DNA of 61,306 bases, the filler included, from Circinaria calcarea (Eukaryota): the NCBI GenBank assembly GCA_051942165.1. It is 12 parts of 12 records of this genome, joined end to end, with 100 filler letters (N's around TTAATTAATTAA, not from the genome) between each part and the next. Parts side by side here need not be neighbours in the genome. Positions count along the whole stretch, not along the records: positions 25,655 to 30,672 come from JAVECS010002079.1; 11 more parts are not named here. One strand, given 5' to 3'. Below the pieces are notes generated by a model. The model worked only from the letters and a program-made list of their open reading frames with translations. It made no database searches and was not told the DNA's origin. Shown here piece after piece: positions 7,147-59,810 of the stretch. Made by a program: the position numbers and the translations under genes. The stretch's first letter is position 1. Each line of letters starts with the position of its first letter.

Positions 7147-9562
7147 ATGGTGCTCTTTATACTCACCGAGACAAGTGCGGGATATGCCCTCTTAAAAGCT
7201 TCAGGTACACTCGTCCCTGCGTGAATGCATTGAGTCGTGTCTAACGGCAATATCCATAGATAAAAAGCTGCTGCAAAGAGAAAATCTTGCAGCAGATACA
7301 GATTCTGCGGAGCAAATATGTTCACTGTGCGTTTACCATCATCGATATCTGCGCACTGAGTCGTCCCCATTAGATTGCGCCTGCCACATGGGATTCAAAA
7401 TCTAGACTTACACGACATATCTCATAGCTTAAAATTGAAGAATTTCCAAAAATTCGATAGTGCCGCGACAGCGTTGGAAGAGGTTGCCGCTTTGGTCGAG
7501 GGCAAGGTCACACCTCGGTTGGCATCTTTGCTCGACTCCATCAAAGATGAAAAGAAAGTGTCATTAGCTGTTGCAGACCCAAAGCTTGGTATGCGGATTA
7601 GAGACCCAATATCAGAATCTGAAAGAACTGACAGCTGCAGGCAATGCTATTAACAACCTTCCTCAACTCTCCATCACCCCAATATCTGACTCTACGACGG
7701 CGGATCTGTACCGTTCCATTCGCAACCATTTACCTTCGCTGATCCCGGGATTATTACCACAAGATATTTCTACAATGTCACTAGGTTTATCCCACTCGCT
7801 CTCCAGGCATAAGCTCAAATTCTCTCCCGACAAAGTCGATACGATGATTGTGCAAGCAATTGCTTTGCTCGATGATCTGGATAAGGAGCTGAACACGTAT
7901 GCTATGCGCGTAAAAGAATGGTACGGCTGGCACTTTCCTGAGATGGGGCGCATAGTAAATGACAATCTGGCCTACGCACGAGTAATCCTAAACATGGGTA
8001 TGAGGACGAGTGCTGCAAACACTGATCTTGCAGAAGTTCTACCCGAGGAGATTGAGACCGCTGTGAAGGCTGCAGCGGAGGTTTCAATGGGTACCGAGAT
8101 TACTACGGAGGATTTGGATAACATACAGGCGCTTGCAGAGCAGGTTGTTAACTTCACCGAATACCGGCAACAATTGTCGAGCTATTTGTCCGCCCGTATG
8201 GCTGCAATTGCACCTAACCTCACCGCTCTTGTTGGCGACCTTGTAGGCGCTCGATTGATCGCTCATGCTGGAAGTCTCATGAATCTAGCCAAAAGTCCAG
8301 CTTCAACCATACAGATCCTAGGCGCAGAGAAAGCACTGTTCCGAGCTCTAAAAACAAAGCATGACACACCAAAATACGGACTGATTTATCATGCGTCGTT
8401 GATCGGTCAGGCCACTGGAAAGAACAAGGGCAAAATTGCTAGAGTACTTGCAGCAAAAGCGGCTATAGGCATCCGTGTTGACGCCTTAGCAGATTGGAGC
8501 GCCGAAGGTGAAGGGAAGGGCGACTTAGTTACTGAAGAGGAGAAGTCTGCCCTCGGGGTTGAAGGTCGGCTCAAGATTGAGCGACGACTCGCAGGCTTGG
8601 AAGGTAGACCGTTGAGATCCAAAGGCGTCACCATAGGACCAAGTGGTGTACCTAGTCAACCTGGGAAATGGGAAGTCAAGGAGGCTCGAAAGTATAATCC
8701 CGATGCAGACGGTCTTGCTGGTGATGAGCCGGCTGCTGCAGTTCCGATTACCGAAAAGCCTAAGAAGGAGAAGAATCACAAGAAGGAGGTGACCCAGAAG
8801 GAGGAAGAAGTCAAGAGGATTGAGGAAATTGAGGAGGATGAAGACGAATCAATGTCCGATGGTGAGGTTTCAGAGGAACAGCAATCCGAAAACGAAGATG
8901 AGGAGATGGTAGACGAGCCAACTGTCATGCCGGACTCTGACGCGAAGTCAGCTCCAGTTACTAACGGCGCTGCTAACGATGCCAAAACTGCAAACCATAC
9001 AACGGGCGCCGATGAGAAATCGGAAACAATATCGACTGTCTCAGCGGATACACCTGATTCGCCCGACTCGCCTACACAGCAGGAAAAGAACTGGCAATCC
9101 AAGATTCTTGGGAACACTAAAGATGCTAAAAAGGCCCGAAAGAAGGAGAGACATGCACGTAAGCTTGCATTATCGGAAGAACGAAGTAAGAAGAAGGCAC
9201 TTAAGAATGCTAAGCTTGCAAGGAGATTAGACCGTAAAGAACGTCGACAAAAAAGGGCAGAGCAGCTTGACAGACGTGAAGAACGAGATGAAAAGCAATA
9301 TGCTGCTCTTGCGAAGCAGGCTGGCTTAACAATAAGTCGGTACAAACGAAAACTGGAGAGGGGAGAGATCAAGTTCAACGAGGATGGGACTCCGCAGGCG
9401 ATCTCGAAGAAGGATATTAAGAGGGCTGAAAAAGCGGCCAGAAAAGCGGAGAGAGTTACGAATATCGATGCAGGTGAAGGGAAAAAGAGGAAGAGGGAAG
9501 AGGATGCAGGAGAGACGGTAGAGAAGGGCGAGAAAAAGAAAAAGAAGAAGCTAAAGGAATAG
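7147..9562 (+). CDS. NOP58: Nucleolar protein 58 (box C/D snoRNP)
   Basis: [18 protein letters not shown] start; introns about 7205-7259, 7327-7427 and 7589-7640; NOSIC/Nop domain [63 protein letters not shown]; Lys-rich tail. Confidence 0.95.
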
Positions 9563-11324: not shown

Positions 11325-14300
11325 TCACATCCCCTTCATCAGCTCCTCCAACCCAATCGGCTTCCTTACCGCATTCGAAAAGCCTTCGTGATAACTCACC
11401 CACACCCTCCCTTGCTCCTTGCTCTTCTTCGCCTTCCCGTTCGCCGTCCCATTTCCTTCTGCCTCCGTTGACCCACGTCTCGCTTCGTTAACGATGATCC
11501 GGCCGAAGAAATCACGCTTGACGCCTGCGACCTTCTTGCTTGTTCCCGTGCCCTTTGCAGAAGACTTGCCCAAGTTTTCTTGATCTAGGTTTGGAGGCTT
11601 GGAGGTGAAGTTGGACTCGACAGGAGGAGAGTTGCCCGCCGTATATCGCGATTGACGGGCTTCTGCGCGCTGGCGGATGAGATGTTTTTGGTACTCTTGG
11701 TCGAGGACTTGGCGGATGGCGTAGCGGGCCGGAACTGAGGTTGAAATTGTTTGAGAGGCAGTATCGAAGGTTGCGAGGGTATCCAGTGGCCTGAACAATC
11801 GATTAGCAGATGTTTTTTTTTTTTGGTATTGCCAATCAAAGGCTACTCACGGCTCCATTCTGTACACAAAGCCACCAAACCCGCCTCTCGCATCTTCTAT
11901 CTTTGATCTTTCAAAGGTCACACTCACAGCACTCATGGCATCTACCGCCCTCCTCACCATAGCCCTTTCAGCTTCTTTCCTTACACTAGCTGTGCCTCTT
12001 TGCTCTCCGCTCCCACCAACGATCACGGGCTTCACGTCCGGCGTGAGCATCTTGAGAAGATGGGGAAGAAGATCAGTAGCAAGCTCCTCTGGAGAGCGAA
12101 AAGAGCGAAGAAGCGGGATTGAGAGAGAAGCTTGTAGCTGTTGTAGAAGCGAGCGGTTCGCTTTCTCTGCTTCGTAGGCAGAAAAGTCGGCTCGAGGGCC
12201 GGTGAACGGCGACGGTTCCTCTTGCTGGTCACCAGTCCGTTGGTCTTGCTGGTTGGTGCCCCACGAATGCTTAGCTGGAGCAGCGAATAGATAATGGAAG
12301 CCTAGGATCGACTGGCTGAGATAGGGATTCAACTCCCATTCCTGGCCGGCAAAAACTCGCGACGACAGAGCATCATGAAAGTTCAACCAGTCATACGCAG
12401 CATTTGGTTTGGATAGAAAGGTATCATCCTGGAAGGGGTGAGACGGGTAGGTTGCGAAGCAATCGGTTATTATTCGATCACATTCACCACAAGTGTCGAT
12501 GATCTCGCGAAGTCTCTCTATGGCTGTTCTTTTACCGAGTTCTGCAACGCCAATACTTTTGACAGTGCAGCCGTTGATTGCGTCTTCGAGAGGTAGCGAA
12601 GCGATTGATTTGGGAAAACCGGCGCCATCGAGGAACACACGATCAACAGCTTCTTTTGCGCCTCCTCGTCCGATACCTCTTGAACCCCCTCCTCCGTGAG
12701 CCAGGTCGTTTAGCATGTGCTTTTCGACCCATTGCTTTGTCAATCGAGGTTGGCTTCCGGTGACAGTCAAAGCACCTCGTATCTTACGAGCAACCCATTC
12801 TCCCACTACTAGAACACCTCGGATATCACCATCACCAGTGTTATTGGAATTTGAATGAGACTCCCTCCTATTGCTGATCCCCCAGGCCGCCTCGCATAGC
12901 CGCCTCACGCCATCGTTGTCGCTGGATATACCTTCTTTACCAAAGACAGTTTTCAGTCGAGCCACTACTTTGTCCAGAGGAGGTTTTCGGATATGAATGA
13001 TTTCTGCCATGTTGGAAGCTCGTAGGGGCCTTAAAGCTGGGTGATAGACGTCGTTGCAAATTAGAATCATTGGCCGCAGGAGACGAAACTGATCTCCTCT
13101 CTTTCCCTTTCTGGTGCTCGTTGGATGCAAAGAATTCAATCCAGCAGACTTCGAGTTCTTTTGGTCCAGTGCAACCAAATCAAGTAGAGCTTTGATGAAA
13201 CCTCCTTCTCCACCACCACTACTGCCACTGACAACGCCATCAACTTCATCGACAACCACACATACCGGTCTACCAGCTTTCCTGACAATTCCATCTGTGG
13301 TCTTCATATTCACCCCTCTTACATTTTCGGTGCCAACACTATCTCTAATCCTTCCTTTGACCACCTCTCGACTCCTCTCATCACTAGCATTGATTTCTAC
13401 CACTTCGTAGCCAGCTTGTCTAGCACATACGTGTGCCAAGGTTGTCTTTCCCAAGCCGGGTGGTCCAGTTAGGAGGAGTATCTTCCGATGTGGTCGATCT
13501 TCTGCAGTCTCTTCCTGGGCTTTACTCCGGGGCTTTGGTCTGCTGGCCGTGGGGAAGACAATAGGATCCCAACATTTCAGCCATCTAAGTACACTTCGAT
13601 GCGTTCGCTCATCGCCAACCAGATCTGTAAATCTCTTGGCACGGTATTTCTCGGTCCACATCATAGTCCGGCCTTTGCGGGATTTGTTGTTTGCCGGTTC
13701 TTCCACGGATGGCCGCGGGACCTCTCCTCTACTTACCGAAGATTTGCTTGGCAAATGAGTAGCCGTAGTCTTGGCCTCTTCAATCAGCTTATGTATTTCG
13801 ATGCCATAGAAACTTGTTTTTGCCCTCCCTGGAGCACTCTTGGACCGGGAGGCAATCAACTGTTCATATGATATTGCAGTCTTGACAACCTTTTTCCGTA
13901 GCGGAAATCTAATTCCACGTGCCGTCCGAATGAAATTGGTCAGCTCTCGGACGCTCTCATCGGTTTCCATATGGGTCAAGTTACCAGTCGGCATGACCGT
14001 AGGTAATGAGTCTGTAGCAGCCTCCTGCATGCTCTCGAACATTGCCATCACGCTTGGATCTGGCAAGTCCTCGACGTCGTCTTCAACAAAAGGTCCAAGC
14101 ACCTTTTTGAATAGTTCGTTTGATTTCCGCGGTGTTAGTGAGGCGAATAAGTTGGCCGCATTATTGGAAGCACCTATTGCTTCCTTGGCAGGAGCTATTG
14201 GCGACTCCCAGCCACCCACAAGTCTTCGTTTGGCTGGGGCGAAGGCATCTGCAGGACGAGTACGTTTACGATGTTCTTGAACTTGCGGAGGTGATGAACT

Positions 14301-14791
14301 TGGAGGGTAGGCGATTGGAGAGGAAGTGGAAGACATGCCAATGGCAGGTGGGGAGGAAGGTGGACAAGGTGGATCGGACGAGACACAAGGTTGGAAGAGC
14401 GGGTTGATGAATTTCGAGCCCTTGGAACACGGGGTATCTTATGAAGTCAGCATTCAGTAATATTTAAGCTCTGCACTTTGATGCCCACCAAATTCCGTAG
14501 AGGGGCCCATCTCTTTGTCTAATGGGGTGATCTGGAATACACAAGGGCAGCAAGCGAGTTCTCCAGCCTACCTAAAGGATAATCCTCTTCGCTCCTGAAG
14601 ACATCGGCAGTTTTCCACGCGCGGTGCTGTATCACGATCCCCTGCTTAGTCTTCGACGCGATGGTTTCTTCCTGAAGGGAATTTAAGGCCTCGAAATCAT
14701 CGGAATTGTTAGGTGTTGGTAAATGGGATTGGACCAGCTCTGAATGAAGATCGATTGCTGGATCAAAAGACGGAGGTAGCGTATCTGCCAT
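11325..14791 (-). CDS. CTF18: Chromosome transmission fidelity protein 18 (RFC-like clamp loader)
   Basis: WTEKYRAKRFTDL, Walker A GPPGLGKTT, EINASDERS, VVVDEVDG, RPMILICND, C-terminal VWVSYHEGFSNAVRKPI; introns 11791-11850 and 14438-14571, the latter joining the 14519-14791 ORF in frame. Confidence 0.93.
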
Positions 14792-16054: not shown

Positions 16055-17050
16055 AGTAAGTCCATATGCCCCCCAAGAATGACTCTAGAAATTAGGGACG
16101 GAAAGAGGCTCGTGGATGACGATTTTGTAGTGGCACCAATCATCCATTGCGTCCGTCACGCTCAGGTACCGGAGAATCCTTCATTACCCTTGAATGTCGA
16201 TCACCTGCTGATCCGAAGCAGGGATATCATAACCTAGCCCTATCCAACCATGTCATGCCTGGTATGCGTCCTTCCGAAATTCTACATGTACCTCAATTCG
16301 TTCGAACATTCTGACTGCTTACCCAGATCCGAGCCTCACCCCACTGGGTGAAGAGCAATGCCATCGTCTCGCACAGAATTTCCCGTATCATAAATCCATC
16401 GAACTCCTTGTAGCATCCCCCCTCCGCCGAACCATTTACACCGCGCTCCTTGGCTTTGAGCCAGTAATCAAGAGAGGACTGAAGATCCTCGCCATGCCAG
16501 AGCTTCAGGAAACATCTAACCTACCTTGTGATACTGGCAGCAGCCGCGAAGTACTGGAAAGAGAATTTGGAGACAAGCCCGTAGACTTCAGCTTGGTACA
16601 CGACGACTGGAACAGCAATCAAGGAAAGTTCTTACCGCATGCCGTTGCCGTCGAGAAGAGAGCAGAAGAGGTCCGACAGTGGTTGAAAGCTAGGCCGGAA
16701 AAGGAGATTGTGATCGTTACGCATGGGGGCTTCCTCCACTATTTTACCGGGGATTGGTCGGATAGTGCACGCTTCGAGGGTCAGCTCCGTGTGTTTCATT
16801 AGGTATTTTCGTTGGCATGTGGACCTTTGACTGATGTTTGAGGATAGGCACTGGTTGGTCGAATACGGAGTTCCGGTCTTATCAGTTTTCAGACGAAACA
16901 GGCGACGACACCTCCTTGGTCGAAACCAAAGCGTCCAGAGATGGCCGCCGTGGAACCGAGAAACCACTTTCGAAAACAGAGCAGATGGAGCTGAGGGAGA
17001 CAACGAATAAGAGTTGGGAAAACAATGGTTATGTCCAGAGCAAGGTTTGA
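16055..17050 (+). CDS. Histidine phosphatase / phosphoglycerate mutase-like protein
   Basis: Spliced product MAPIIHCVRHAQGYHN..DPSLTPLGEEQC..VASPLRRTIYT..PELQE..PCDTGS..IVIVTHGGFLH..GTGWSNTEFRSY; four introns, the first (16056-16130) apparently splitting the ATG. Confidence 0.88.
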
Positions 17051-25554: not shown

Positions 25555-25654
25555 NNNNNNNNNNNNNNNNNNNNNNNNNNNNNNNNNNNNNNNNNNNNTT
25601 AATTAATTAANNNNNNNNNNNNNNNNNNNNNNNNNNNNNNNNNNNNNNNNNNNN
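25555..25654. other. Artificial contig spacer
   Basis: N44-TTAATTAATTAA-N44. Confidence 0.99.
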
Positions 25655-25780
25655 CAACGGGAGCAACGGGAGCAACGGGAGCAACGGGAGCAACGGGAGC
25701 AACGGGAGCAACGGGAGCAACGGGAGCAACGGGAGCAACGGGAGCAACGGGAGCAACGGGAGCAACGGGAGCAACGGGAG
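25655..25780 (+). repeat. 9-bp coding tandem repeat
   Basis: (CAACGGGAG)x14 perfect, running into the contig end. Confidence 0.95.
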
Positions 25781-26184
25781 CAACTGGACCTATGGGCCCA
25801 AGTGGAGCATCCGGTCTCAGCGGCGCAATAGGCCCTAGCGGGGTCTCGATCGCAATGGGTTACCTTGGATGTTATTTTCAGAGCGGCAGTGCTGTCAACA
25901 TCAACGGTCGCGTTTTGGCCAATTTCCAAGCCACTTATACCACCTCACCCAATCGACAATGTATCGCCGCCTGCTCCGCGGGCTCCTATATCTTTGCGGG
26001 ACTCGTAGCCAACGGGGCTACGGGAGGGGACTGTTATTGCGGCAATTCACTGAATTTGGTGCAGATTCTCGGATTGGGAACGGGGCGGACGACGGATAAC
26101 AACTGCGGGCTCTGTGGGGGCGCATCTGGAGAGTGCGGGATTACGGCGAGTCAGACTGTGGCGATTTTTGCGAAAGCGTTTTAG
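25655..26184 (+). CDS. Collagen-like (Gly-X-Y)n protein with C-terminal WSC domain, 5' truncated
   Basis: (GAT)x14 then [21 protein letters not shown], then YLGCY..C...C....Y.FAGL..G.DCYCGN..C..CGG...ECG WSC pattern. Confidence 0.8.
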
Positions 26185-27222
26185 GCTTAGGCTTCCGGGG
26201 AATGGAAAGGGGTTGGTGTGGGTTGGAGGCGGAGGCGCTGTGTAATAACAAATGTAATTTGGAGACGGTGTTGGAAAGGAGATATCTTAATATAAACCCC
26301 AATGCACTCGGAATAAATCTCCATCCTAATTTCCGTATTCTAGCACGTTTGAAAATTCCTGTTATCTGAAATGTGATTCCGGGTGGTGCCATGGGGATAT
26401 GATTGTGCGAATGTTGTGGTGGACCTGGGTAATAGTTCTGCCGATACGCCGAGTCACGTGATACAACGACCATGTTGTGCGAACGGACTTCTCATCTCCG
26501 CTTTCACGCCTTGCGGTAGGCCAGAACCAGCCACTATACATGTGCGCGTACCAATCAAATGCCTGGCGCATGCTGGATTAAGCAAAGGACCTCTGTACCT
26601 GGAAAAAGATGCCCCAACAAGCTATGGATGCAGATTGCAAACAAGGCCTATCAATTGGACCATGAGGCTGACTGGGCGTGTACGCGCTTCTTGCCGCACC
26701 ATTACGAGCTACGAGTACCCCCACGACGTGTGGACATTTACGAGTAGCCGAAGCTGTTGTGGTTGTTCGGAATGGCCGTTGGAAATCCTACTGGGCAGGA
26801 TATACACAAGTGACTTTCCATCACCCTTGCCCGCATCAAACCCGTGTATCTTCCCTACGCTACCTGTACTCTGACAAGGTAGGGATTTGGATACAACCAC
26901 TGCATGTGTCACGCTCTTTCCTTCTCGTCCAATAATATCTATGGCTTCGATTCGTGCGGCATTATGGCCTGGGCATAATTGCTCAGATCGGATCAGAAAA
27001 CCAACAGTACGGCAGAAGGTAAGAGGAGGGATGTCGTTACAAAGTATATTCAGCACCCAGTTCCCCGTTCGCTTATCCGACCATGACCTTAGCCGGCTGG
27101 AGCTGGGTAAGCCTCGTTCTGCCTAGGTGGGATGCCTCGAGTGATTGAGGATATGTCGTGTGCTCCTTTCTTGAAGCAACAAGCTACCTGCTCGTACATC
27201 CACACACGGCACAATTCCGCAG

Positions 27223-29462
27223 ATGGATCCGTTCACAATCGTTGGTGTCGCTGGAGCAATCGTGGGTGTGATGGACGTTATCACAAGAAGTGTTCGTTCT
27301 CTATATCATTTGCAGACAGTGTTTAAGGGAAGCGACTTGACCATTAGCCTCCTTATTGGCCAACTCTCCACGCTCAAGGCCGCACTAAATCAGATCAATG
27401 AATGGATTGATACAACTCTTGTGAATGTACAGCAGCGCCAGCAACTTGTACTCGATCTCAATGCATCCTTGGAGAGCTGCAAAGTCGTCATCCAATTATT
27501 GGATGATCGTGTAAGCCATTTTGAAAGGATCAATAACAATGCCATGTGTATGCAGAGTAGAGTACTATATCTATGGGAGCAGACGGGTATCACGGAATAC
27601 CTTAACCATCTAAACAATCAGACCACTGCCCTTAACCTTCTCCTAACAGCCTTACAATGGTTAGTACATCACCAAATCTAGGGTTCTTTAGTCAATTTCA
27701 CTGACAGTTATAAAGCCGATCAATTTCCGAGCAAACTTCTCTGCTGGATAACAACAAGAGCCGTCAAATCATCACCGGGGCTAGGGATGATACATCTTCC
27801 TTATTGTGGTTTAAGGATGCAGAGTCATGCACTACCCGGCAAAGTAAAATGACTGAGAACTCAGCCATGTTAGATACGAGGTTTGACTTTGACAACGAGA
27901 TCCTCAACTCGAAGCCCTATCAGGGAGCAATGAGGTCTAACATTAGGTACGGACTCAACAGAAGATGGAAGGTACAGAGGAGTTCCGATGAGCCACCACC
28001 AAACATGACAACCAGCTCTACAATATCAACACCATCGGAAAAAGATGAACAAGGTATGCACATGACAGACGTCGAACTCCCGAGTCTTCCCATTGTGGAA
28101 AGTGGTACAAGTCGGTCATACGGCATAGGTTATGGCCCTTCGCCGGCGGCTCTTGATCCATCAATCCGCACTGTACGGCTCCGCCCAGTGGATAGCTTAT
28201 CAAAGAATCAAAGTAGGGACGATGGATTGATGAGGGAAATGTCACACACATATGGGCAGAGGCTGTTTAGGACCACTTCCAACTTGCTGGCAAATTGGAA
28301 GGGTAATAATCGACAGCCGATCTCACAGAAAGAAGCTCAGGCCGCGAGATCAAAGGGCATTGATGCGTTTATTAAGAAGGACAAAATGGCAAAGGAGAAG
28401 GAAGTGAAGCTACTGTTCCTAGGAGCTGCAGGAAGTGGAAAGTCCACTGTCCTCAACCAGATGAGGCTCCTCTGTCAAAGAGACTACACAACTTCTGAGC
28501 GCGAAAGTTTCAAGCCGGCCATCGTCAGCATTATGGTCAAGCTGATGCGAAATATCGTAAAAGCTATGATTGAGTCGGACTTGTCCTTGGACGATAAGGG
28601 AGGGGAACACTACCTCCAAAATATACTAAGCCAGCCATTAGATCCCAAATGGGATACTCTGCCTTCCGAAGTCATTGACGCTATCAATTTCTTGTGGATG
28701 GATTCTGGTGTCCAGAGGTATTTTCAGAGACCAGATAGGTGTCAAATCGACAATGCTGCACAACAGTATGTTATTGAGAAAACTTATTGTCCTCCTGGGA
28801 GCAGAAGGCAGCTAACCGATATGTTCGTATATAGTTACTTTGGTTCCATCTCTCGTATCACTCGATCTGACTACTTGCCAACTGATCAAGACATCATCCA
28901 ATGTCATATCGAGAAAACTGGCATTACGGAATCCAAACTCTCTGATCCCGGCGGATTGACCTACCGTTGTTTAGAATGTAACGGTATACCATTTGGCCAA
29001 GGGAAATGGACTCACGTTTTCGAAGATGTCAAAGTAATACTCTTTGTCGTCTCCCTCGCTGACTATGATCAGATGCCGTCTAACGACAAGACTGGTTCCT
29101 CAATGCAGGAATCCCTGGACCTATTCGGGTCGATCTGCAAATCGAAATGGTTGGAGAAGACACCTATACTTTTGGTTTTCAACAAGACGGATTTGTTTAA
29201 TCGCAAGATTTTCGAAAGCCCCATCAAACATTATTTCCCTAATTGTCCCTCTCCTACCTACCGTGCAGGGCGGCATGACATTGAGGTTGCTAAGAACTAC
29301 TTCCTTCACAGGTTTTTAAGTTGCAACAATAATCCGAATCGGCAGTTCTACCACCACTTTATCAGTGCCGCGACCGACAGGACTCTCGCAAGGACCATCA
29401 TTGTCGACGTTAAAGACGCTCTCCTCCAATCGTCTTTGGCACTATCTTTGGAGGGCTGCTGA
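27223..29462 (+). CDS. HeLo-like (fungal STAND N-terminal) domain fused to a divergent G-protein alpha domain, ~704 aa
   Basis: Exons 27223-27659, 27716-28765 and 28835-29462 (GTTAGT..CTGAC..AAG; GTATGT..CTAAC..TAG) splice in frame; N-terminus MDPFTIVGVAGAIVG...; G-alpha motifs VKLLFLGAAGSGKST, YLPTDQDI, KWTHVFEDV..ILFVVSL.DYDQ, ESLDLF.SIC, LLVFNKTD. Confidence 0.88.
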
Positions 29463-35784: not shown

Positions 35785-35884
35785 NNNNNNNNNNNNNNNN
35801 NNNNNNNNNNNNNNNNNNNNNNNNNNNNTTAATTAATTAANNNNNNNNNNNNNNNNNNNNNNNNNNNNNNNNNNNNNNNNNNNN
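35785..35884. other. Artificial contig spacer
   Basis: N44-TTAATTAATTAA-N44. Confidence 0.99.
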
Positions 35885-37116
35885 CCGCATCAGCCCTTTC
35901 CCCCCTCCCCGCCACTTCCTCACTGATAAAGCATCCCAGACCCGCAAACGCCTCGAGCATAGTCCGGGCGTAATATTCCTTGATATCGTACCCACCCGCC
36001 GAGATCGCGGGATCGCTACGCGCCTTATCCAGCCATGGGTTTTCGTAATGGTCCTGAAGGGAATAGTAGGTTCGTTCCTGGAGCATGCCGCCAAAGGGGT
36101 CGTATGGCTTTTCGGGTCCGACGACTTCGACGGGTTTGAGGCCTTTGATGAGGAAGGAGGAGGGGTCCGAGGATGGTGCGCTGCTGCCGTTGGAGGAGTA
36201 CTTGGCGGTGCTGACTGGCTGCTGCAAGGATTGAGATGAAGACTGCTGTTGTTGCTGTTGGCGCGCCTTTTCTGCCGCGGTCCGGCGGGCAGTGCTTTTC
36301 TTCAGAACGACCTTTTGCGCTTCGGCGGCGAGCGCGTCCGCGTCTCCCTTTCCCTTTGCGAGTTTGTCGATGAATTCACGCTTACCTTCTTCTTTTTCTT
36401 TCCGTTCGTCGTCTTCTTCCCGCCGGGCAGCTTCCCGTCGTAGTCGAGCGGTTTCTCGTTCGGCGGCTTGCCGGGCCTCGGCAGAAGAGTGTTCCTGGTT
36501 CGAGATTGCGGTGTTACGGGCGATGGTAGGGGCGTTCTGGGAGGCGTAGGCGGCGAGTTTGGCTTCCGTGGCGGGGACGTCGATGTTCTCGATGAGGTTG
36601 AAGGTTAGCGATTCGACTTCTTCAAGGTAGTTGTTGTAGTCGAGGAGGGTGCTGAATTCTTCTTCGCGCCGGTTGAAGCTGGTCGAGTGAGCGTTCGAAG
36701 GAGCTTTTGCAAAGGCAACCACACTCACACTGAAGCTACGCGGCGTCTGATATCCACTTCCCGCTCGACCTTAATGTCCCCAAACGTCTGGGTCCTGAAG
36801 CGAGCTTTCCGGAGCGTCCTTCCGCAACCTGCGACGGGGCAGGGAGCCGGACCTTGGGAGAAGATCCGGTCGACGCAAGATTCACACATTTTGTGATAAC
36901 ATTCCGGATTGACCAGGAATCGCATATTGGGATTGAGGTAGCGGGATGACTTGCATACCGGGCAGATTTCTGACCAAAACCAAGTAGGATAGTATCAGTA
37001 TAGAGGCCTTTTACAGGCGCGTGTTTGTAGAGAATGAGAAGAAAATGAGGCCTACCATCTTCATCCCCTGGCCCCCGAGCTATGGCCCTGCCGTTCTGCT
37101 GAGCTGCTCGAGACAT
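35885..37116 (-). CDS. TFB3: TFIIH/CAK assembly factor Tfb3 (MAT1), 3' truncated
   Basis: RING CPVCKSSRYLNP..ECYHKMCESCVDRIFSQGPAPCP..C; EREVDIRRRV..FNRREEEF..L.DYNNYLEEVE; AGGY..RTMLEAFAGL; two introns. Confidence 0.95.
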
Positions 37117-37532: not shown

Positions 37533-39690
37533 ATGGCTGCTATCAAGGATAGCTTTATTGACCTCGAGCGTCACCGTAAGCGATTCGAAGCCAACGTAGC
37601 AGAGCTGAGGAAATCTCTTCAATACTGGCAAACATGGGAAGCCGAATACGAAGGATTGAGAGAACAAATACAAGGCTTAGGAGATGAACCCAGTGCGCAG
37701 GAGCTGGTATGCAAAGTCAAGATTGAAGCTCTCGCTTGACGGTACTTCGTGGCTTATTCAAGACGCCTAGGAAGATGAGGGGAAAGAGTTCGGCGGTGTC
37801 CTCCTGAACGAAAAAGGTACAAGTCTACCATGCAACAACGTTATACCTTTGCTAATTTTCTTAAGAAATCAAAGGGCTACTTAATGACGGGAGGGGCCAA
37901 CGCCGTACAAGTCAGCAGATTCTTGGTTTGCTTTCGAGACGTATCGATTGTAGGTCTTACCTAACGTTACTAGAAGCTTAGAACGCACTGATACTTGACA
38001 GATGTGCAAGAAAACGTTAAAGCTATGGCAAGGCGACTGGAATCGGCCAACGAAAAGCTTCTAACCGCCAACGTTGTCAGCCAACCAGAAGTACGGAACG
38101 AAGAAGGACTACCCATAACAGAGATATCCGAGGAATTAGACGACGATGGTAATATGATCGGTCAGTGCACTCCGATATCTGGGTCTTGAGATCTATACTG
38201 ACAATTGCATAGCTAGCTCCACAACCACGCCCGGTGACTCTACACCACAGCTGTTGGAAGCCTTGCGTAAAGCAGGAGTGAAGGATCTCCCACAGGTCAA
38301 CGAAAGTGACATAATTGAACCAGAATCTGACAGCCTAGCTGACCAAGTCGAAAAAATCAAATTATCAATGGAGCATGGGTCTTCAGCTGCGAACAAAAGT
38401 CGTATGGTAGACCCCGGGATTTCACAGGCCACGGATGTTGGTCATGAGCCGGTAGCAAAAGAGTTTGGGAAGATCAGTGATGATACGACAAGCCGGAAGA
38501 AGAGTGTGTCATTTGCCGAAGACACGAAAGACCCCGCTCCTACCTTTAAGGCCGTTTCACAGTCACCACAACGTCAACGCAGAGTAGGCTCGGGGGACGC
38601 AGCTACCTACAGAACTTCTACAGGGATACCTGCATCTAATCTGGAAGTAATCAACGTCAACGATAGCCCTGATAGCTCTATTACTTCGCCGATCGTTCCT
38701 CATGATGAATCTCCAGAAGACGCTGATTTACGGCGACAGATGCTTGAGTATAACATGAATGAAGTTGGCGCTATTGTTGCTGAGATGGATCTGGACGATA
38801 GTGGAAGCTACAGTTCTTACTCAGAAGACGACGAAGACGATCGATACAACAGCAGTGCCGACGAGGACGAGGACCAATATGGCCGAACAACACAACCCGT
38901 CATTACTGAAAAGTATAGGAAGCAGATGCAAGAACTTGAACGAAAGCTTAACGCTAGGATCATCGAGAACGTGGGACCGAAACCTGATATACCACTTGCG
39001 GAGAGCCATAGTGAGGATCGATCTTTGCGACCCGACGTAGAGCTGGAGGATGTACCTCGAGAGATAAAGACCTCGAGGAAAAAGGGCGTTCGTTTCGCTG
39101 AAGAGCTAGATGTCTCCGAGGAACCAACTATTGCTCCGATAAAGCTACAACCAAAAGTTATGGATACTCCGAGCAGTGGCCCAATTACAGGAACCATAGT
39201 TGAGAGATCGACAAAGGGTGTTGAGACATCCGACACCGGTCCCAAGAATCAGAAGCTATCCAGGTTTAAAGCGGCGCGTTCGGGAATCGCACCTACGATA
39301 GTAGGAAGCGTTGCACCGCAACCCATGGCTCTGGCTACACAAGTAACCAAGATATCTTCTGCTGCATCTCCAAGTTTTGTTGACAAAGATCGTATCCGCC
39401 AGGTCCCCGAGGGACCTCAAGGACGCACACATGCAGACGTCCTCATAGAACGTTCACCGAGAAATGACGGAAATACGGCGATCGAGCCCGATGAACTCGA
39501 TCCTGCTCTGCTGCATCAAGAGGTAGCGGTTGAGTATCACCGGATGCGTAACCGCATGATCCAAATGAACGGAGGATTCATGCGAACAGATGAGGAGTCT
39601 GCGCAGATACCAGCAACAGAGGAGGATGAAGACGGAAGCGGAGGTAGGAAGATGAGCAGATTCAAGGCTGCTAGATTAGCTAGGCAGTAA
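37533..39690 (+). CDS. BUD27: Unconventional prefoldin Bud27/URI-like protein
   Basis: N-terminal prefoldin-like helices (LQYWQTWEAEYEGL, LLSRRIDYVQENV, NEEGLPITEI.EELDDDGN) over several small exons; acidic middle; repeated K(L/M)SRFKAAR motif. Confidence 0.75.
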
Positions 39691-48821: not shown

Positions 48822-51104
48822 CTACCCCTTAAATGCAAAGCGTCCTAAGTCAAGTTTAGGCTTGTTAGTGCTCCCTCCCTCTGAGTATAAACCGCTCTCC
48901 TGATCCTCATCTTCCGAATTAGGGACCATGAAATCCTCACTGCCTCCGTTGGAAAACATTCTGGCTGTTTCCGGTGATTCCGGTATATGTACATTCGCTT
49001 TCAAAGCGGTCGGACTTGTAGATGCTACTGAATCCAAGGGTTTCTTGTCTGTTCCAGCTAAAGTGCTGGAAGACGTTAACGCACTGGTACATGAACGTGG
49101 TCTTTGCAACGCTCCTAAACGTATTTGATGCATAGGTGCTTTATTTTCGGGTCCCTTCAACAGTGGCCTACATAGATTCCCAAGTGCTTTTGTCGGTCCA
49201 GCAGTACTCTGCGCATTTAACTTCGAGGATAGAACGGTGCTTGCCCGTGCTCGCGTTGGATTCGAGAATTTAGCCTCGAGAGCCACAAAATCCATCTTGC
49301 TGCACTCTGCCCAAACTTTGTCAGCAGGCTGGATCTCTGTGACACTTGACACTGAACTGGCAGGCGTGCACTGAGTAACTGCCTGAGATAGTTGCGTCAA
49401 GACACCTGTTGAAGATGATGTTTGAGAAATTGTAGTATTGTCAGGTATGGACTTATTCCTCCTGGATGTGCCCTCCTGATTCTGCGTGTCCATGTCCTTG
49501 AAGACGGGGATCTTGACTAATTTTACAGGCCCATAATCGTCTGCCACGTCGGGTAATTTGGCCATCGCATCCTCTATCGAATCATCAGACCAAATATTGA
49601 TACCTGTTGTTTTTGACCGATCTTCCCTCGCACCTCTTTTGACTAATGGGCTGGGCTCTGGTATAAGAGCTGCAAAGAATCGACTGCGACCAGCCTCAAC
49701 CCTCACCATAGTCGGAAGAGCCTGATCGGTCGCTTCCTCGTCCGGATCTTCACACAGTCTCTGTCTTTTTGGTGGATGTATTCCAGGTGCCGAGGCTGGG
49801 GGTTTCTTATTAACAAGTCTATCCGTAAATGGGGACATGGGTGCATTGTCCGTTATCGGCAAGGACGTTGTAGACCGGGACAGCATTGCCCGAGTTGGGG
49901 CGGAACTGGATAACCATGAGCCACGATTCTGTTCAAGAAGCCACTGTTGGTTAGGAGAAGGTGTAAAACTATTAGGGTCTAGCTCCGCAAGTGGCGTCCT
50001 CTTGGGCTTATAGTAAGACTCAATTGACTTGCTAGACTTCAAATCAGATGGCGTAACAACTGATTGCCGTCTTGATGTTATCCATGGCGACTTTGGTGTA
50101 CTGCCAGCTCGAGAGGTGACAATCATCGGAGTCTTTGTCATAGGATGGAGGTCACCTCTCGCCACACCCAGGGCAATATGTGACTCAACATCTTTTCCAA
50201 TGAACGCAAAGTCTTCCGGTTCAACCTCCAAACCTATGTTCGTGGCCATCACAACTTTGTTGACATCAGGGCAGAAAACACGTTGGTGGAGAAAAGTCAG
50301 CTCGGCCTTCCGGAAATCCTCCAGATACCCTGGTGGAACAACATATTGACCATCAAATTGCAGCATCCGAAGGATTTTCTCAATTGTCTTATGTTTTCGC
50401 ACGAGTCGATATGCAGTTTTGAGGCCCATCTTATTGATGCTCGGCAGGTAATCGCATCCGCTGAGTATTGCCATTCGCCTGAATTCCACATCTGACCAGC
50501 CAACCAAGCTGATTTCTCGGCAGGCAGTAAAATCAGCGCGATTGATTGCAATGCAATCGCCATACTGGTCTAGCTTAGTAAGAAGTCGTTTCGCTCCAAA
50601 GACCAGAAGGTCCGAGTCTTCGGATAGGATTCCTTGAATGATACCCCTTTTTTCAAGATATACAAGCTGTGCATCTGCCTCGTACGGTGCGACGACGTAT
50701 TGTATGTCCTGGCATTTCAGCTCGTCGATCAGTTGTCTGGCCATTTCGGGAGTGACGTCAACGGCCTTTTGCAATTCCAGGTGTGCTTGGGAAGGTTTCC
50801 CCATCCTGTGAAGTTCCAGCCCGACTCTTTTGCTTTCCTTGCGCCTCTTTGCCCTCTCAATTTCCGTAATCGCTTTGCTTGGAAGGTAATCTCCATCGAA
50901 GACCATATATGGAGTAACGCCAAAGTGTATCAACATGCGGACTCGATTCATTGCGAAGTCGACAAATCTATAAACATAAGCTTTGCCAAGGAGTGCACCA
51001 CTGTTATATTCAAATTACTTGGTGGTTGGCTTATCCAAGGCGAGATCAATCGCACAAGCGACTGTGCCCCTGTGTAGCCAGCCATATGCATCGACTCCAA
51101 TTGT
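48822..51104 (-). CDS. EXO1: Exonuclease 1 (XPG/Rad2 family), 5' truncated
   Basis: GVDAYGWLHRG, VFDGDYLPSK..E..R, VAPYEADAQL, SEDSDLLVFG, ILSGCDYL..I..MGLKTA, TFLHQRVFCP; long disordered C-terminus. Confidence 0.95.
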
Positions 51105-56206: not shown

Positions 56207-56306
56207 NNNNNNNNNNNNNNNNNNNNNNNNNNNNNNNNNNNNNNNNNNNNTTAATTAATTAANNNNNNNNNNNNNNNNNNNNNNNNNNNNNNNNNNNNNN
56301 NNNNNN
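56207..56306. other. Artificial contig spacer
   Basis: N44-TTAATTAATTAA-N44. Confidence 0.99.
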
Positions 56307-58269: not shown

Positions 58270-59810
58270 CGTGTGCGATTATGGGTCTTTGATGGAGGTA
58301 TAGATTCGGCGGAATTGTTCGTCGAGTATAGGAGTTTGCGCAGCGATGGTAATTGGCCGACGGCTGTGGTGAAGGAGGTAGTTCCTCGCTCAATTGAGAT
58401 TTGAGATAGCGAGTCCTTTGGTTGTATGGTTTGGAGCGTTTTCGAATGCTTTTCAGGCTTCGTGCTTCGTTCGTTGTCAAAGTCGATCCTTCGTCGTGGC
58501 TGTAGAGAGCTCTGGTGTGGCGATGTTGATTCCTAATGTGAATGAGAAGGGCAGTGCTTCAATCGTTGTGAATAGCTAATACTGTGGTCTTTATTGTAAC
58601 AGAGCCCGGCCTCAAGGACAACATAGTCAAAACATGTCAAACCGATCACAACGAGAATGGAAATTGTAATAGTAGATGCTGCAAATGTAATTTAGCGTTG
58701 ATCTCACGACAATAATTGCCAAATGTTAAATCTGACCAATGATGCATTGACCCCCGGCACCATTGACTGGCCTGTGCGAGTCATTAACCTAAACCATGAC
58801 CTAAACTTTCCAAAACTAACCCGAAACCGTTGAAATCATAGCGAGTAACATCTTTAACCTCGAACCCCTAATCCTATCATTCTACTTATCTTCTCAAGTT
58901 TTATACGGGTGACGACGCTCGATCCGTTTCTTATCTAGAATGTATCAAGTAGATTTAAACAGTAAACACCTAGTGATGGTTCCCAATCAAGGTTCATGCC
59001 TGTTAGAGTAATGGAGGCATTTACAACGAGACTAATGGTGGAGCAAGATCAGGCAGCTGTAGCCTTCGGTCCAGGATGATGATGACAGCTTTGTATTGAC
59101 GAAGGGAAGCAATTCCATTCAAGAGAAACGCTGGGGTGCACTAGGTACTGTTCCCAATGCTACTACGAAGTACGAGCGTTCCACGATCCCTGGCAGTGAT
59201 ATGCTCAGGGGCCTCCCGGCGAAATGCAATGCCATAGGGCTGAAGGCGGTCGAACCGGCGGCCAGCGAGTATAAACATTCAAATTACGCTATTCCGTACT
59301 TCGCTCTCGCCTCCGGTGCATATGAGTGGGACTACAAAACATGGCTACTCTGGTGAAAAACGCGACTGGATCGGGGCCTTCGGTACGGGCTACCGAGACC
59401 AGACTTATCGACATGGCTACTCCGTAAGAAGCCCGGAGGTGTCTCCGAATGGGTGCCCACTTTCCATAGCACTGGGAGATATGGTCTCGGTTAGAAGCCG
59501 GACCCCGCCAAGCAATTTTGTCCGCCACCATTCTTTTGCCGGAAGCTGGCTGTCAATCGATGGCGCTCGGATGGGTGCACACATACATGTATAGACCATA
59601 TACTCGGTAGGTAACCCTTAAATTCAGTCTCCTGGGTCAGGTGGGAGTTTAGGTTTTTGTGGCGTGTAGCCTTCCAGGCAGGGCACGGACTTTTGGCTTC
59701 AAGATATCAACTGACAAACGCTGCCAGCGCAAATCACCTCACCTACAAAATCCCATCCATATCTCACCATTTCTTGTCTTTCCTATGACTCACATTCCCT
59801 GAAACCTACC

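What the first reader, a model, noticed from the sequence alone, without database searches (positions are those of the whole stretch)
27223..29462. HeLo-like domain fused to a G-alpha domain: candidate G-alpha-gated cell-death/immunity effector
Seen: two ORFs in the track join into one intact ~704-aa gene through canonical introns. Residues 1-146 have a hydrophobic Gly-containing first helix (MDPFTIVGVAGAIVG) followed by amphipathic helices. A DDTSSL..FDFDNEILNS.PY linker and a disordered spacer follow, then a complete G-alpha (Ras-like plus helical) domain. There is no MGxxxS myristoylation start. Established: this N-terminal pattern is that of the fungal Helo_like_N / STAND N-terminal four-helix domains, related to HET-S HeLo, MLKL and RPW8 membrane-targeting effectors, usually found on NACHT/NB-ARC NLRs. 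Canonical fungal G-alphas are ~350-aa lipid-anchored proteins. Inference: G-alpha here takes the place of the NLR nucleotide switch, or is an integrated decoy sensing GPCR/G-beta-gamma/RGS-targeting effectors, and controls release of a membrane-damaging helix. Similar architectures may already sit in genome databases, but I know of no functional description.
Basis: partly seen in the sequence, partly recalled or inferred. Interest (0 to 1): 0.88.

Follow-up and report, generated by a model that had tools for sequence, protein, structure and literature searches.

The report
HeLo-like domain fused to dead G-alpha
This fungal gene really does join a membrane-targeting "cell-death-type" helical bundle to a G-protein alpha domain that has lost its GTPase switch residues; it belongs to a widespread but functionally unstudied family that earlier work counted as extra G-alpha subunits.

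Summary
Window 27223-29462 (+) encodes one 704-aa protein from three exons. Both introns have canonical signals, and the spliced product aligns without gaps to annotated homologues.

The parts are:
- aa 1-145, exactly exon 1: a four-helix N-domain of the PF17111 (HeLo-like) family. Its first helix is the most hydrophobic segment of the protein.
- aa 146-235: a conserved helical linker with near-invariant FxFD...Y residues.
- aa 237-345: a disordered Ser/Thr/Pro-rich spacer.
- The rest: a complete G-alpha fold.

The Arg finger is His, the Mg-Thr is Lys, the DxxG Asp is Glu and the catalytic Gln is Ile. Across 42 family members, Gln survives in 2.

The architecture recurs across Pezizomycotina. 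Of 41 long profile hits to the N-domain, 37 carry G-alpha and none carries NACHT or NB-ARC. The family probably includes Aspergillus GaoC and possibly the "divergent G-alpha paralogs" of lichens. I found no paper that notes the N-domain.

My best reading is an MLKL-like design in which a pseudo-GTPase regulates a membrane-targeting bundle. This is inference. A membrane-tethered signalling variant like plant XLG is a serious rival. No RNA data were available.

The parts
27223..27659 (+). Exon 1: aa 1-145 plus two bases of codon 146. It encodes the whole HeLo-like (PF17111) four-helix N-domain.
   Evidence: Pfam PF17111 at 24.2 bits, E 2.4e-5. AF2 gives four helices at 3-33, 35-68, 73-106 and 109-144, with mean pLDDT 73.7.
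27229..27285 (+). N-terminal hydrophobic helix, aa 3-21, with small-residue positions G8, G11 and G15 and an acidic D18.
   Evidence: Its Kyte-Doolittle 19-mer mean is 1.85, the highest in the 704-aa protein. In alignment A2, G8 is kept in 52/62 rows, G11 in 37/62, G15 in 32/62 and D18 in 33/62.
27660..27715 (+). Intron 1 (56 nt), placed exactly at the boundary between N-domain and linker. If it is retained, the frame stops at 27679-81.
   Evidence: The alignment to homologues is gap-free across the junction. The A2 consensus of exon-1-only ORFs has a read-through W directly after the exon end.
27716..28765 (+). Exon 2: linker, spacer and the first part of the G-alpha domain.
27717..27980 (+). 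Conserved helical linker, aa 147-234. It contains DDTSSL (27786-27803) and FDFDNEILNSKPY (27882-27920).
   Evidence: AF2 helices at P0002 residues 3-34 and 58-88, with pLDDT 76-89. Across 57 fused proteins: S174 55/57, D180 47/57, F202 53/57, F204 54/57, D205 54/57, Y214 54/57. Median identity to 12 homologues is 42%.
27987..28313 (+). Disordered Ser/Thr/Pro/Arg-rich spacer, aa 237-345.
   Evidence: pLDDT is 30-47 and no secondary structure is predicted. Median identity to homologues is 12%.
28326..29459 (+). G-alpha fold: alpha-N-like helix, Ras-like domain and helical domain. The span includes intron 2.
   Evidence: PF00503 at 286.3 bits, profile 2-332/333. Best PDB match is Go-alpha at E 3.7e-53. 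AF2 pLDDT is mostly above 90.
28422..28448 (+). P-loop GAAGSGKST. The GxxxxGKS/T pattern is kept.
28766..28834 (+). Intron 2 (69 nt, in frame, no stop codon).
   Evidence: The homologue alignment has no counterpart for these 23 codons. pLDDT is below 50 there.
28835..29462 (+). Exon 3: the rest of the G-alpha domain and the TGA stop.
28899..28925 (+). Switch I, QCHIEKTGI. The Arg-finger position is His (aa 520) and the Mg-binding Thr position is Lys (aa 523).
   Evidence: hmmalign against canonical G-alphas. Five-way alignment.
28974..29009 (+). Switch II, ECNGIPFGQGKW. The DxxG Asp is Glu (aa 543) and the catalytic Gln is Ile (aa 547).
29181..29192 (+). Guanine-specificity motif NKTD, kept.

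Best explanation
What it is (about 0.9 sure). This is an intact three-exon gene of a filamentous ascomycete for a 704-aa protein. It belongs to a Pezizomycotina-wide family with four parts: a PF17111/HeLo-like four-helix N-domain, a conserved helical linker, a disordered spacer, and a G-alpha fold that no longer has GTPase-switch residues.

How it most likely works (about 0.4; inferred, not shown). The design resembles MLKL. The N-terminal bundle, with its hydrophobic glycine-rich first helix, is the membrane-targeting and possibly cell-killing output. The C-terminal pseudo-GTPase, derived from a heterotrimeric G-alpha, is a regulatory or partner-binding domain that keeps the bundle inactive until a signal arrives. 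That signal could be a binding partner such as G-beta-gamma, a receptor or an RGS protein. It could also be phosphorylation or cleavage in the spacer, or loss of an intramolecular contact made by the FxFD...Y linker helix. The G-alpha part acts as a nucleotide- or partner-binding scaffold, not as a GTP-hydrolysing timer.
For: Gene and architecture:
- The spliced model aligns gap-free to annotated 600-770-aa homologues.
- 23 of 30 N-domain hits and 37 of 41 profile hits carry PF00503. So do 26 of the 42 long hits I scanned, out of the 150 listed. Six more of the 'G-alpha-less' proteins show the start of the domain with a family HMM.

HeLo-like identity of the N-domain:
- 24 of 31 family members hit PF17111 at E<=0.01.
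- P0201, P0240 and P0252 exceed the Pfam cut-off (29.5, 30.0 and 33.6 bits against 27.2).
- The nearest ESM-Atlas clusters are PF17111 and SesA.
- AF2 gives a four-helix bundle that superposes on the Rx CC domain (Z 12.6), the MLKL N-terminal domain (Z 10.9, rmsd 2.5, 116 residues) and AtMLKL3 (Z 9.0).
- Residues 3-21 are the most hydrophobic 19-mer of the protein, with conserved G8, G11 and G15.
- HeLo and HeLo-like domains kill by membrane targeting through their first helix, and are related to the MLKL 4HB. I take this from passages of PMC12881547 and PMC9815663.

Pseudo-GTPase:
- In this protein Arg is His, Mg-Thr is Lys, Asp is Glu and Gln is Ile.
- In 42 fused proteins, Gln is kept in 2 and Arg in 15. 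The P-loop is intact in 28, clearly degenerate in 8 and gapped in 6.

Which part is under the tighter constraint: median identity to 12 homologues is 43% for the N-domain, 42% for the linker and 28% for G-alpha. Canonical G-alphas evolve slowly by comparison (the canonical P0006 and P0087 are 52.0% identical). This is the pattern expected for a conserved output domain and a diverging regulatory domain.
Against: - No activity, localisation or expression data exist for any family member (GaoC function unknown and the gene was never deleted; no RNA run).
- PF17111 is a broad family, and most of its members have no shown death activity.
- The window's own N-domain scores below the Pfam cut-off.
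- The structural matches are those of a generic long four-helix bundle. IncA and SPECT rank higher, and the tool itself warns that Z below about 13 is common for helical bundles. Foldseek found nothing at E<=0.001.
- G-alpha domains are not known to oligomerise, whereas HeLo, MLKL and CC executioners act as oligomers.
- The gene lies among housekeeping genes, not in an NLR- or het-rich region.
Confidence: 0.45

Rival explanations
1. An XLG-like atypical signalling G-alpha. The protein is a working, nucleotide-independent member of the heterotrimeric G-protein system. The HeLo-like bundle only replaces the missing lipid anchor as a non-lethal membrane tether or localisation module.
For: - The window's G-alpha keeps an alpha-N-like helix, the P-loop, NKTD and much of the canonical sequence. 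It is 44.0% identical to a group I G-alpha.
- There is no N-terminal lipidation motif, so another membrane anchor would be needed.
- Plant XLGs combine a long N-terminal extension with a G-alpha that has lost its nucleotide motifs. They still bind G-beta-gamma and act in immunity (passages of PMC8584482).
- One Cladonia paralog was reported as induced 2-fold in co-culture (supplement passages of PMC6652019). That this paralog belongs to this family is not shown.
Against: - Across the family the G-alpha domain is the less conserved part (28% against 43%). Its P-loop is degenerate in 8 of the 36 ungapped members. That is odd for the functional core of a signalling protein.
- Switch II, which by recalled structural knowledge is the main G-beta contact, is heavily altered here.
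- The N-domain plus linker also occurs with other C-terminal parts.
Confidence: 0.3
2. An integrated decoy or guard. The G-alpha domain mimics the host's real G-alpha, so that an antagonist's toxin or effector aimed at G-proteins trips the HeLo-like executioner.
For: - The architecture is executioner plus a copy of a common toxin target.
- The G-alpha part evolves fast and the family is patchy in its distribution.
- Divergent G-alpha paralogs are reported as expanded in lichen fungi (PMC6652019). It is not shown that these are the same family.
Against: - The residues that known G-alpha-modifying toxins attack (recalled: the catalytic Arg, the catalytic Gln and the Cys four residues from the C-terminus) are His, Ile and Ser here.
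- Gln is missing in 40 of 42 members. A modification-sensing decoy should keep its target residues.
- No sensor-type polymorphism data are available.
Confidence: 0.1
3. Two separate products, or a decaying gene. The N-domain exon and the G-alpha ORF would be expressed separately, or the G-alpha part would be a drifting relic without function.
For: - No RNA data are available.
- Retention of intron 1 would give a 152-aa stand-alone N-domain.
- The catalytic residues are lost.
Against: - The reading frame is intact over 2115 nt and both introns are canonical.
- The linker residues that bridge the two ORFs are conserved (C146 42/57, S174 55/57).
- The same fused architecture is annotated in five classes of Pezizomycotina.
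- The G-alpha fold is predicted with pLDDT above 90, and the P-loop and NKxD are kept.
Confidence: 0.07

Closest known systems
Aspergillus oryzae / A. flavus GaoC (the 'fourth G-alpha'), and the 'five divergent MAG C-like G-alpha paralogs' of Cladonia grayi and Endocarpon pusillum
   Same: Aspergillus section Flavi proteins of 606-690 aa share the N-domain (37-39% identity), the linker motifs and a G-alpha with Ser at the Gln position. The GaoC paper reports the same Gln-to-Ser change and an 'inactive' G_alpha domain (PMC5869405 passages). The lichen paralogs are described as divergent extra G-alphas (PMC6652019).
   Different: Neither paper mentions an N-terminal domain. PMC5869405 says the G-alpha proteins contain only the G_alpha domain. 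The A. oryzae RIB40 model in the same 90% cluster is a 358-aa G-alpha-only model, probably truncated. That GaoC and the Cladonia paralogs are this family is inferred, not proven. The window's G-alpha is more canonical-like overall, yet it has lost more switch residues.
HeLo-like (HELL, PF17111) executioners HELLP/HELLF, and HeLo of HET-S
   Same: All have an N-terminal helical bundle of the same Pfam family or superfamily, with a hydrophobic first helix.
   Different: Those proteins carry a C-terminal amyloid-forming motif and are triggered by a neighbouring NLR (PMC9815663 and PMC12881547 passages). Here the C-terminal partner is a G-alpha fold, I scanned for no amyloid motif, and no NLR is nearby.
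Fungal 'all-in-one' NLRs with an N-terminal HeLo-like domain
   Same: Both place a HeLo-like domain at the N-terminus of a P-loop NTPase-fold domain.
   Different: There is no NACHT or NB-ARC here (only a P-loop-only hit of 15.9 bits against a 26.7 cut-off) and there are no WD, ANK or TPR repeats. G-alpha is a TRAFAC-class GTPase (recalled classification), not a STAND ATPase, and has no known oligomerisation.
MLKL (four-helix bundle, brace helices, pseudokinase)
   Same: The logic is the same: an N-terminal membrane-targeting 4HB, a helical connector, and a C-terminal enzyme fold that has lost catalysis and acts as the regulatory switch. The bundle superposes at Z 10.9.
   Different: The regulatory fold is different (a G-alpha, not a kinase). 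A long disordered spacer lies between connector and regulator. Only the bundle may be homologous; the rest is analogy.
Plant extra-large G proteins (XLG1-3)
   Same: Both have a G-alpha-like C-terminal half with degenerate nucleotide and catalytic motifs behind a long N-terminal extension. XLGs have roles in immunity and cell death (PMC8584482 passages).
   Different: The XLG N-terminus is a Cys-rich, NLS-bearing region, not a HeLo-like bundle. The origins are independent (plants versus Pezizomycotina).

Membership tests
PF17111 (Helo_like_N / PigL_N; HeLo-like domain) | The sequence scores above the Pfam gathering cut-off | tested here: inconclusive
   The window's exon-1 domain scores 24.2 bits against a 27.2 cut-off, E 2.4e-5. 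Close relatives (34-53% identical) pass: P0201 at 29.5, P0240 at 30.0, P0252 at 33.6. 24 of 31 members hit at E<=0.01.
PF17111 (Helo_like_N / PigL_N; HeLo-like domain) | N-terminal position, with a hydrophobic first helix | tested here: met
   The domain starts at Met1. Residues 3-21 have a KD mean of 1.85, the top 19-mer of the protein, and the feature is conserved in the family.
PF17111 (Helo_like_N / PigL_N; HeLo-like domain) | A four-helix bundle of the MLKL / HeLo / plant-CC type | tested here: inconclusive
   AF2 gives four long helices, pLDDT 73.7. VIA Z is 12.6 to Rx-CC, 10.9 to the MLKL N-terminal domain and 9.0 to AtMLKL3, but 14.5 to IncA, and the tool warns that such Z values are common for helical bundles. 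Foldseek found nothing at E<=0.001.
PF17111 (Helo_like_N / PigL_N; HeLo-like domain) | Membrane targeting or cell-death activity | not testable with these tools
   This needs expression and membrane assays.
Heterotrimeric G-protein alpha subunit (PF00503) | The G-alpha fold: a Ras-like domain with an inserted helical domain | tested here: met
   PF00503 at 286.3 bits, profile 2-332/333. Go/Gi-alpha structures match at E 3.7e-53. AF2 pLDDT is above 90 and a helical insert is present.
Heterotrimeric G-protein alpha subunit (PF00503) | Catalytic Arg in switch I and catalytic Gln in switch II | tested here: not met
   They are His and Ile. In the family, Arg is kept in 15 of 42 and Gln in 2 of 42.
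Heterotrimeric G-protein alpha subunit (PF00503) | Mg-binding Thr in switch I and Asp of DxxG | tested here: not met
   They are Lys and Glu in the window's protein.
Heterotrimeric G-protein alpha subunit (PF00503) | P-loop GxxxxGKS/T and the NKxD guanine motif | tested here: met
   GAAGSGKST and NKTD are present.
Heterotrimeric G-protein alpha subunit (PF00503) | N-terminal lipidation motif (MGxxxS) at the start of the protein | tested here: not met
   The protein starts MDPFT, and the G-alpha part begins near aa 346.
Heterotrimeric G-protein alpha subunit (PF00503) | Binding of G-beta-gamma and coupling to a receptor | not testable with these tools
Fungal NLR / STAND receptor | A NACHT or NB-ARC nucleotide-binding oligomerisation domain | tested here: not met
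   There are only P-loop-length sub-threshold hits: NACHT at 15.9 against 26.7 bits, and nSTAND_NTPase5 at 16.4 against 34.
Fungal NLR / STAND receptor | C-terminal WD40, ANK or TPR repeat sensor | tested here: not met
   Pfam finds no repeat family. The protein ends with the G-alpha alpha-5-like helix.
HeLo-like-G-alpha fusion family (unnamed; includes Aspergillus section Flavi 'G-protein alpha subunit-domain-containing proteins') | N-domain, then a linker with FxFD...Y, then G-alpha, in this order | tested here: met
   The window's protein has all three parts, with 37-52% N-domain identity to named members.
HeLo-like-G-alpha fusion family (unnamed; includes Aspergillus section Flavi 'G-protein alpha subunit-domain-containing proteins') | The published GaoC (AFLA_124830) and the Cladonia paralogs are the same family | tested here: inconclusive
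   The Gln-to-Ser change matches, and a 358-aa A. oryzae RIB40 'G-protein alpha subunit' sits in the A. flavus cluster. No locus tag could be linked, and no Cladonia sequence was available.

The most novel reading that the evidence does not exclude
HeLo-like-G-alpha proteins are an unrecognised class of fungal regulated-cell-death or immunity executors that need neither an NLR nor an amyloid trigger. In them, a pseudo-GTPase derived from a heterotrimeric G-alpha gates an MLKL-type four-helix bundle. The near-invariant FxFD...Y linker helix may act as an intramolecular latch. G-protein-pathway partners, or antagonists that disturb them, would then trigger membrane attack directly. If the divergent G-alpha paralogs reported as expanded in lichen-forming fungi are this family, it could police partner recognition in symbiosis.
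Probability: 0.25. Interest if true: 0.85.

Novelty: new variant of a known kind. Interest (0 to 1): 0.6.

Why it matters
If the inferred mechanism holds, fungi have a third way to control HeLo/MLKL-type executioner domains, beside NLR fusion and amyloid templating. This control would be built on a dead G-alpha. That would parallel the MLKL pseudokinase and the nucleotide-independent XLG proteins of plants.

There is also a practical point. The 'extra G-alpha subunits' counted in Aspergillus section Flavi, and probably those in lichen fungi, are likely not heterotrimeric G-alpha subunits in the usual sense. At least one reference gene model (A. oryzae RIB40, 358 aa) appears to lack its N-terminal half. 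The family gives simple experiments: test the toxicity of the N-domain with and without the G-alpha part, and test nucleotide binding.

Tried and rejected
- RNA evidence: the look-up of sequencing runs listed no RNA holder, only one biocrust metagenome DNA run with a 0.06 share of words. I did not lay it.
- Whole-genome paralog search: no genome is held for this window. Within the window there is no second copy of either domain (tblastn).
- Profile of the N-domain (A2) against PDB sequences: the top hits were coronavirus spike heptad-repeat constructs (E 3.2e-4) and other coiled coils. I read these as a compositional helical-repeat likeness. No HET-s or MLKL chain was listed.
- Foldseek against PDB: nothing at E<=0.001. 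HET-s is not among the 50 rows shown by VIA-align.
- Idea that the window's G-alpha was swapped in recently from a canonical paralog. A quick tree placed it among canonical G-alphas (98 SH-aLRT). However, a tree holding all 27 fused rows together was not worse (lnL 3.09 higher, p-AU 0.653), after I dropped 6 very long rows: P0127, P0144, P0169, P0168, P0284 and P0137. Pairwise identities are star-like. So a single origin with fast, independent divergence is enough, and the swap idea is not needed.
- Literature: 'helo-like' plus 'g-alpha' gave 0 papers. The 6 papers listed for 'PF17111' (7 hold the term) and the 5 listed for 'Helo_like_N' (6 hold it) showed no title on this architecture. 'Galpha' plus 'HeLo' plus 'fungal' gave 18 papers; the 10 listed looked like prefix matches (for example Helotiales), and none was about this architecture by title or abstract. 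'IPR031348' gave 2 unrelated papers. PMC9815663 has 0 occurrences of 'g-alpha' or 'g protein'. PMC12881547 has 0 of 'g-protein', 'galpha' or 'gtpase'. One of the 13 supplement files of PMC6652019 was not searched. Lafon et al. 2006, the original GaoC report, is not in the library and I did not see it.
- Earlier findings of this scan: nothing relevant.
Full report

Yes. The + strand between 27223 and 29462 holds two long open frames, 27175-27681 and 27714-29462. A 56-nt intron (27660-27715) joins them. It has a GTTAGT donor, an ACTGAC branch-like site and an AG acceptor. A second intron, 28766-28834, is 69 nt long, in frame and free of stop codons, so it hides inside the long ORF. Its signals are GTATGT, GCTAAC and TATAG.

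The spliced CDS is 2115 nt and encodes 704 aa. In a MAFFT alignment with 12 annotated homologues, the spliced product runs through both junctions without a gap. The 23 codons of intron 2 have no counterpart in any homologue. When the read-through translation (P0002) was folded, the only low-confidence stretch inside the otherwise confident G-alpha fold fell on those intron-encoded residues (pLDDT <50 at 354-358 and 362-372).

Transcript evidence could not be obtained, because no RNA run was listed. The gene model therefore rests on splice signals, homology and the fold.

**2. What the parts are**

*N-domain (aa 1-145, exactly exon 1).*
- Pfam gives PF17111 (PigL_N, formerly Helo_like_N) at 24.2 bits, E 2.4e-5. 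This is just under the 27.2-bit cut-off, and no other HeLo-type family is reported even at E<=1.
- At family level the assignment is firmer. 24 of 31 members hit PF17111 at E<=0.01. Three relatives pass the cut-off: P0201 at 29.5, P0240 at 30.0 and P0252 at 33.6 bits. The nearest ESM-Atlas clusters carry PF17111, or PF17107 SesA, on 15-27% of their members.
- AlphaFold2 with 31 sequences gives four long helices (3-33, 35-68, 73-106, 109-144), with mean pLDDT 73.7 and pTM 0.65.
- Structure searches are compatible with an MLKL or plant-CC type bundle but do not discriminate. Foldseek found nothing at E<=0.001. VIA-align against 48,161 chains ranked IncA (Z 14.5) and SPECT (13.7) first, then Rx-CC (12.6), the MLKL N-terminal domain (10.9, rmsd 2.5, 116 residues), MLA13 (9.6) and AtMLKL3 (9.0). 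The tool warns that Z below about 13 is common for helical bundles.
- The first helix (aa 3-21) is the most hydrophobic 19-mer in the whole protein, with a Kyte-Doolittle mean of 1.85. Its small-residue positions are conserved in the 62-row alignment A2: G8 52/62, G11 37/62, G15 32/62.

*Linker (aa 146-235).* This part is as conserved as the N-domain, with median identity 42% against 43% to 12 homologues. In 57 fused proteins, S174 is kept in 55, D180 in 47, F202 in 53, F204 in 54, D205 in 54 and Y214 in 54. AF2 predicts two helical segments there with pLDDT 76-89 (P0002 residues 3-34 and 58-88).

*Spacer (aa 237-345).* It is predicted disordered (pLDDT 30-47). It is rich in Ser, Thr, Pro and Arg and is not conserved (12%).

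*G-alpha domain.* PF00503 scores 286.3 bits and covers profile positions 2-332 of 333. 353 PDB sequences match at E<=0.001, the best being Go-alpha at 3.7e-53, with the alignment starting at residue 9 of Go in the alpha-N helix. AF2 confidence is mostly above 90.

**3.

I aligned the domain to a profile of 95 canonical G-alphas and to canonical representatives. The window's protein keeps the P-loop (GAAGSGKST) and NKTD. It differs from the canonical residues as follows:

| Position | Canonical | Window's protein |
|---|---|---|
| Arg finger (switch I) | Arg | His |
| Mg-binding residue (switch I) | Thr | Lys |
| DxxG acid | Asp | Glu |
| Catalytic residue (switch II) | Gln | Ile |

Switch II as a whole (ECNGIPFGQGKW against DVGGQRSERKKW) is rewritten.

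I then looked at the 42 fused proteins whose G-alpha match spans more than 250 residues. These come from the 60 proteins that have both domains among the 313 I had fetched.

| Feature | Count among the 42 |
|---|---|
| Gln at its column | 2 (one in a clearly degenerate context) |
| Arg | 15 |
| Thr or Ser at the Mg position | 34 |
| P-loop | 28 intact, 8 degenerate, 6 gapped |
| NKxD motif | TKxD 23, HKxD 9, NKxD 3 |

The family is therefore a set of pseudo-GTPases, or at best non-hydrolysing nucleotide binders. The window's copy is the most canonical-like in overall sequence (44.0% identity to a group I G-alpha, against 33-36% to other fused members). It is nevertheless among those most damaged at the switch.

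**4. Distribution and architecture**

- A word-indexed search with the N-domain found 30 long proteins, of which 23 have PF00503.
- A profile of exon-1-only ORFs (A2) found 41 long proteins, of which 37 have PF00503.
- An exhaustive phmmer search over 1.84 billion representatives found 697 hits at E<=0.001 and 291 at E<=1e-10. Of the 150 listed, most are 140-200-aa ORFs that correspond to exon 1 alone. I scanned the 42 that were at least 250 aa and had not been scanned before. G-alpha appears in 26 of them at E<=1e-5, and NACHT or NB-ARC in none.
- I re-tested 22 'G-alpha-less' proteins with family HMMs. 20 carry the linker and 6 show the start of a G-alpha, so many are truncated models.
- A few proteins pair the N-domain plus linker with something else. 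There are weak PH-like hits in P0266 and P0262. In P0139 a PNP_UDP domain lies upstream of the N-domain.
- Named members come from Lecanoromycetes, Eurotiomycetes (Aspergillus section Flavi, Talaromyces, Cladophialophora), Sordariomycetes (Xylariales), Leotiomycetes and Dothideomycetes.
- The gene's neighbours in the window are housekeeping genes (Nop, AAA ATPase, MAT1, DUF3835, XPG, Band_7, Sel1). There is no NLR or HET gene among them.

**5. Origin of the G-alpha part**

A quick maximum-likelihood tree put the window's domain, together with the fragment P0003, among canonical G-alphas (98 SH-aLRT). This suggested a possible domain swap. An AU test did not reject a single clade of all 27 fused rows. 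The constrained tree had a log-likelihood 3.09 higher, with p-AU 0.653, after I dropped six very long rows. Each fused member is closer to slow-evolving canonical G-alphas than to other fused members. That is what one old fusion followed by fast, independent divergence would give.

**6. What is already in print**

- A. oryzae and A. flavus are said to have a fourth G-alpha, GaoC, of unknown function (PMC3563288 passages).
- PMC5869405 (passages) reports that its catalytic Gln is replaced by Ser and that SMART calls it probably inactive. The authors did not delete it, and they state that the G-alpha proteins contain only a G_alpha domain. The Aspergillus section Flavi members found here have Ser at that position. 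Their 90% cluster includes a 358-aa G-alpha-only A. oryzae RIB40 model beside 673-690-aa A. flavus models. GaoC is therefore very probably this family with its N-terminal half overlooked. I could not link locus tags, so this remains an inference.
- PMC6652019 (passages and supplement search) describes five divergent MAG C-like G-alpha paralogs in Cladonia grayi and Endocarpon pusillum. 'HeLo' does not occur in the 12 of 13 supplement files that were searched.
- The NLR-domain survey PMC9815663 and the 2025 review PMC12881547 do not mention G-proteins at all.
- Direct searches for the combination found nothing.

**7. How it most likely works**

*Shown:* the architecture, the HeLo-like affinity of the N-domain, its hydrophobic first helix, the conserved helical linker, the disordered spacer, and the loss of the GTPase switch residues.

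*From the literature (passages):* HeLo and HeLo-like domains kill by membrane targeting through their first helix. They are related to the MLKL four-helix bundle, which is held in check by a pseudokinase.

*Inferred:* here the dead G-alpha plays the regulatory role and the bundle is the output.

The inference is helped by the conservation pattern, in which the N-domain and linker are better conserved than G-alpha. It is weakened by several points:
- There is no functional data for any family member.
- The four-helix-bundle fold is generic.
- There is no known way for a G-alpha to oligomerise.
- The genomic context is housekeeping.

The main rival is an XLG-like, nucleotide-independent signalling protein whose bundle is only a membrane tether (PMC8584482 passages). 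A decoy reading is less likely, because the residues that G-alpha-modifying toxins attack (recalled knowledge) are not retained.

**8. Verdict**

This is a real, intact gene and a new variant of known kinds: a HeLo-like executioner module combined with a pseudo-G-alpha. The family is present in databases and has been partly noticed as 'extra G-alphas'. As far as my searches reach, its architecture and function are undescribed. I put interest at 0.6.

Noticed in passing
window 28766-28834: Intron 2 is 69 nt, in frame and without a stop codon. ORF-based translation therefore silently inserts 23 residues into the helical domain of the G-alpha. The AF2 model of the read-through has pLDDT <50 exactly there.
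   Followed up: yes
window 27660-27681: If intron 1 is retained, the frame ends after 7 more codons (stop at 27679-81), giving a 152-aa free HeLo-like domain. The intron sits exactly at the domain boundary. Most hits to the N-domain in metagenome protein sets are 140-200-aa exon-1-only ORFs, so the intron position looks conserved. Regulation by intron retention is conceivable but untested.
   Followed up: partly
window 25603-26181 (+): This ORF has a run of unknown bases (16 X codons, about 25609-25656). It is followed by about 15 Thr-Gly-Ala repeats, which Pfam reads as 'Collagen', and then a sub-threshold WSC domain (24.9 against 27.8 bits).
   Followed up: no
proteins P0266, P0262, P0139 (related loci, not in the window): The N-domain plus linker module is occasionally paired with other parts. 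P0266 and P0262 have weak PH-like domains (27.2 against 28, and 18.4 against 27 bits). In the JGI model P0139, a PNP_UDP phosphorylase domain lies upstream of the N-domain, and that model ends at the conserved intron site.
   Followed up: partly
proteins P0315 / P0314 (A. oryzae, 358 aa) versus P0146 / P0313 (A. flavus, 673-690 aa): The A. oryzae RIB40 and 3.042 gene models in the same 90% cluster contain only the G-alpha half. They are probably truncated annotations of the fused gene. This would explain why the GaoC literature saw only a G_alpha domain.
   Followed up: partly
window 1-61306: The long ORFs around the gene are housekeeping types: Nop 7568-9559, AAA ATPase 11850-14438, His_Phos_1 16233-16799, MAT1 35832-36770, DUF3835 38158-39687, XPG 48825-51014 and Sel1 56254-58278. 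No tRNA genes were found.
   Followed up: partly
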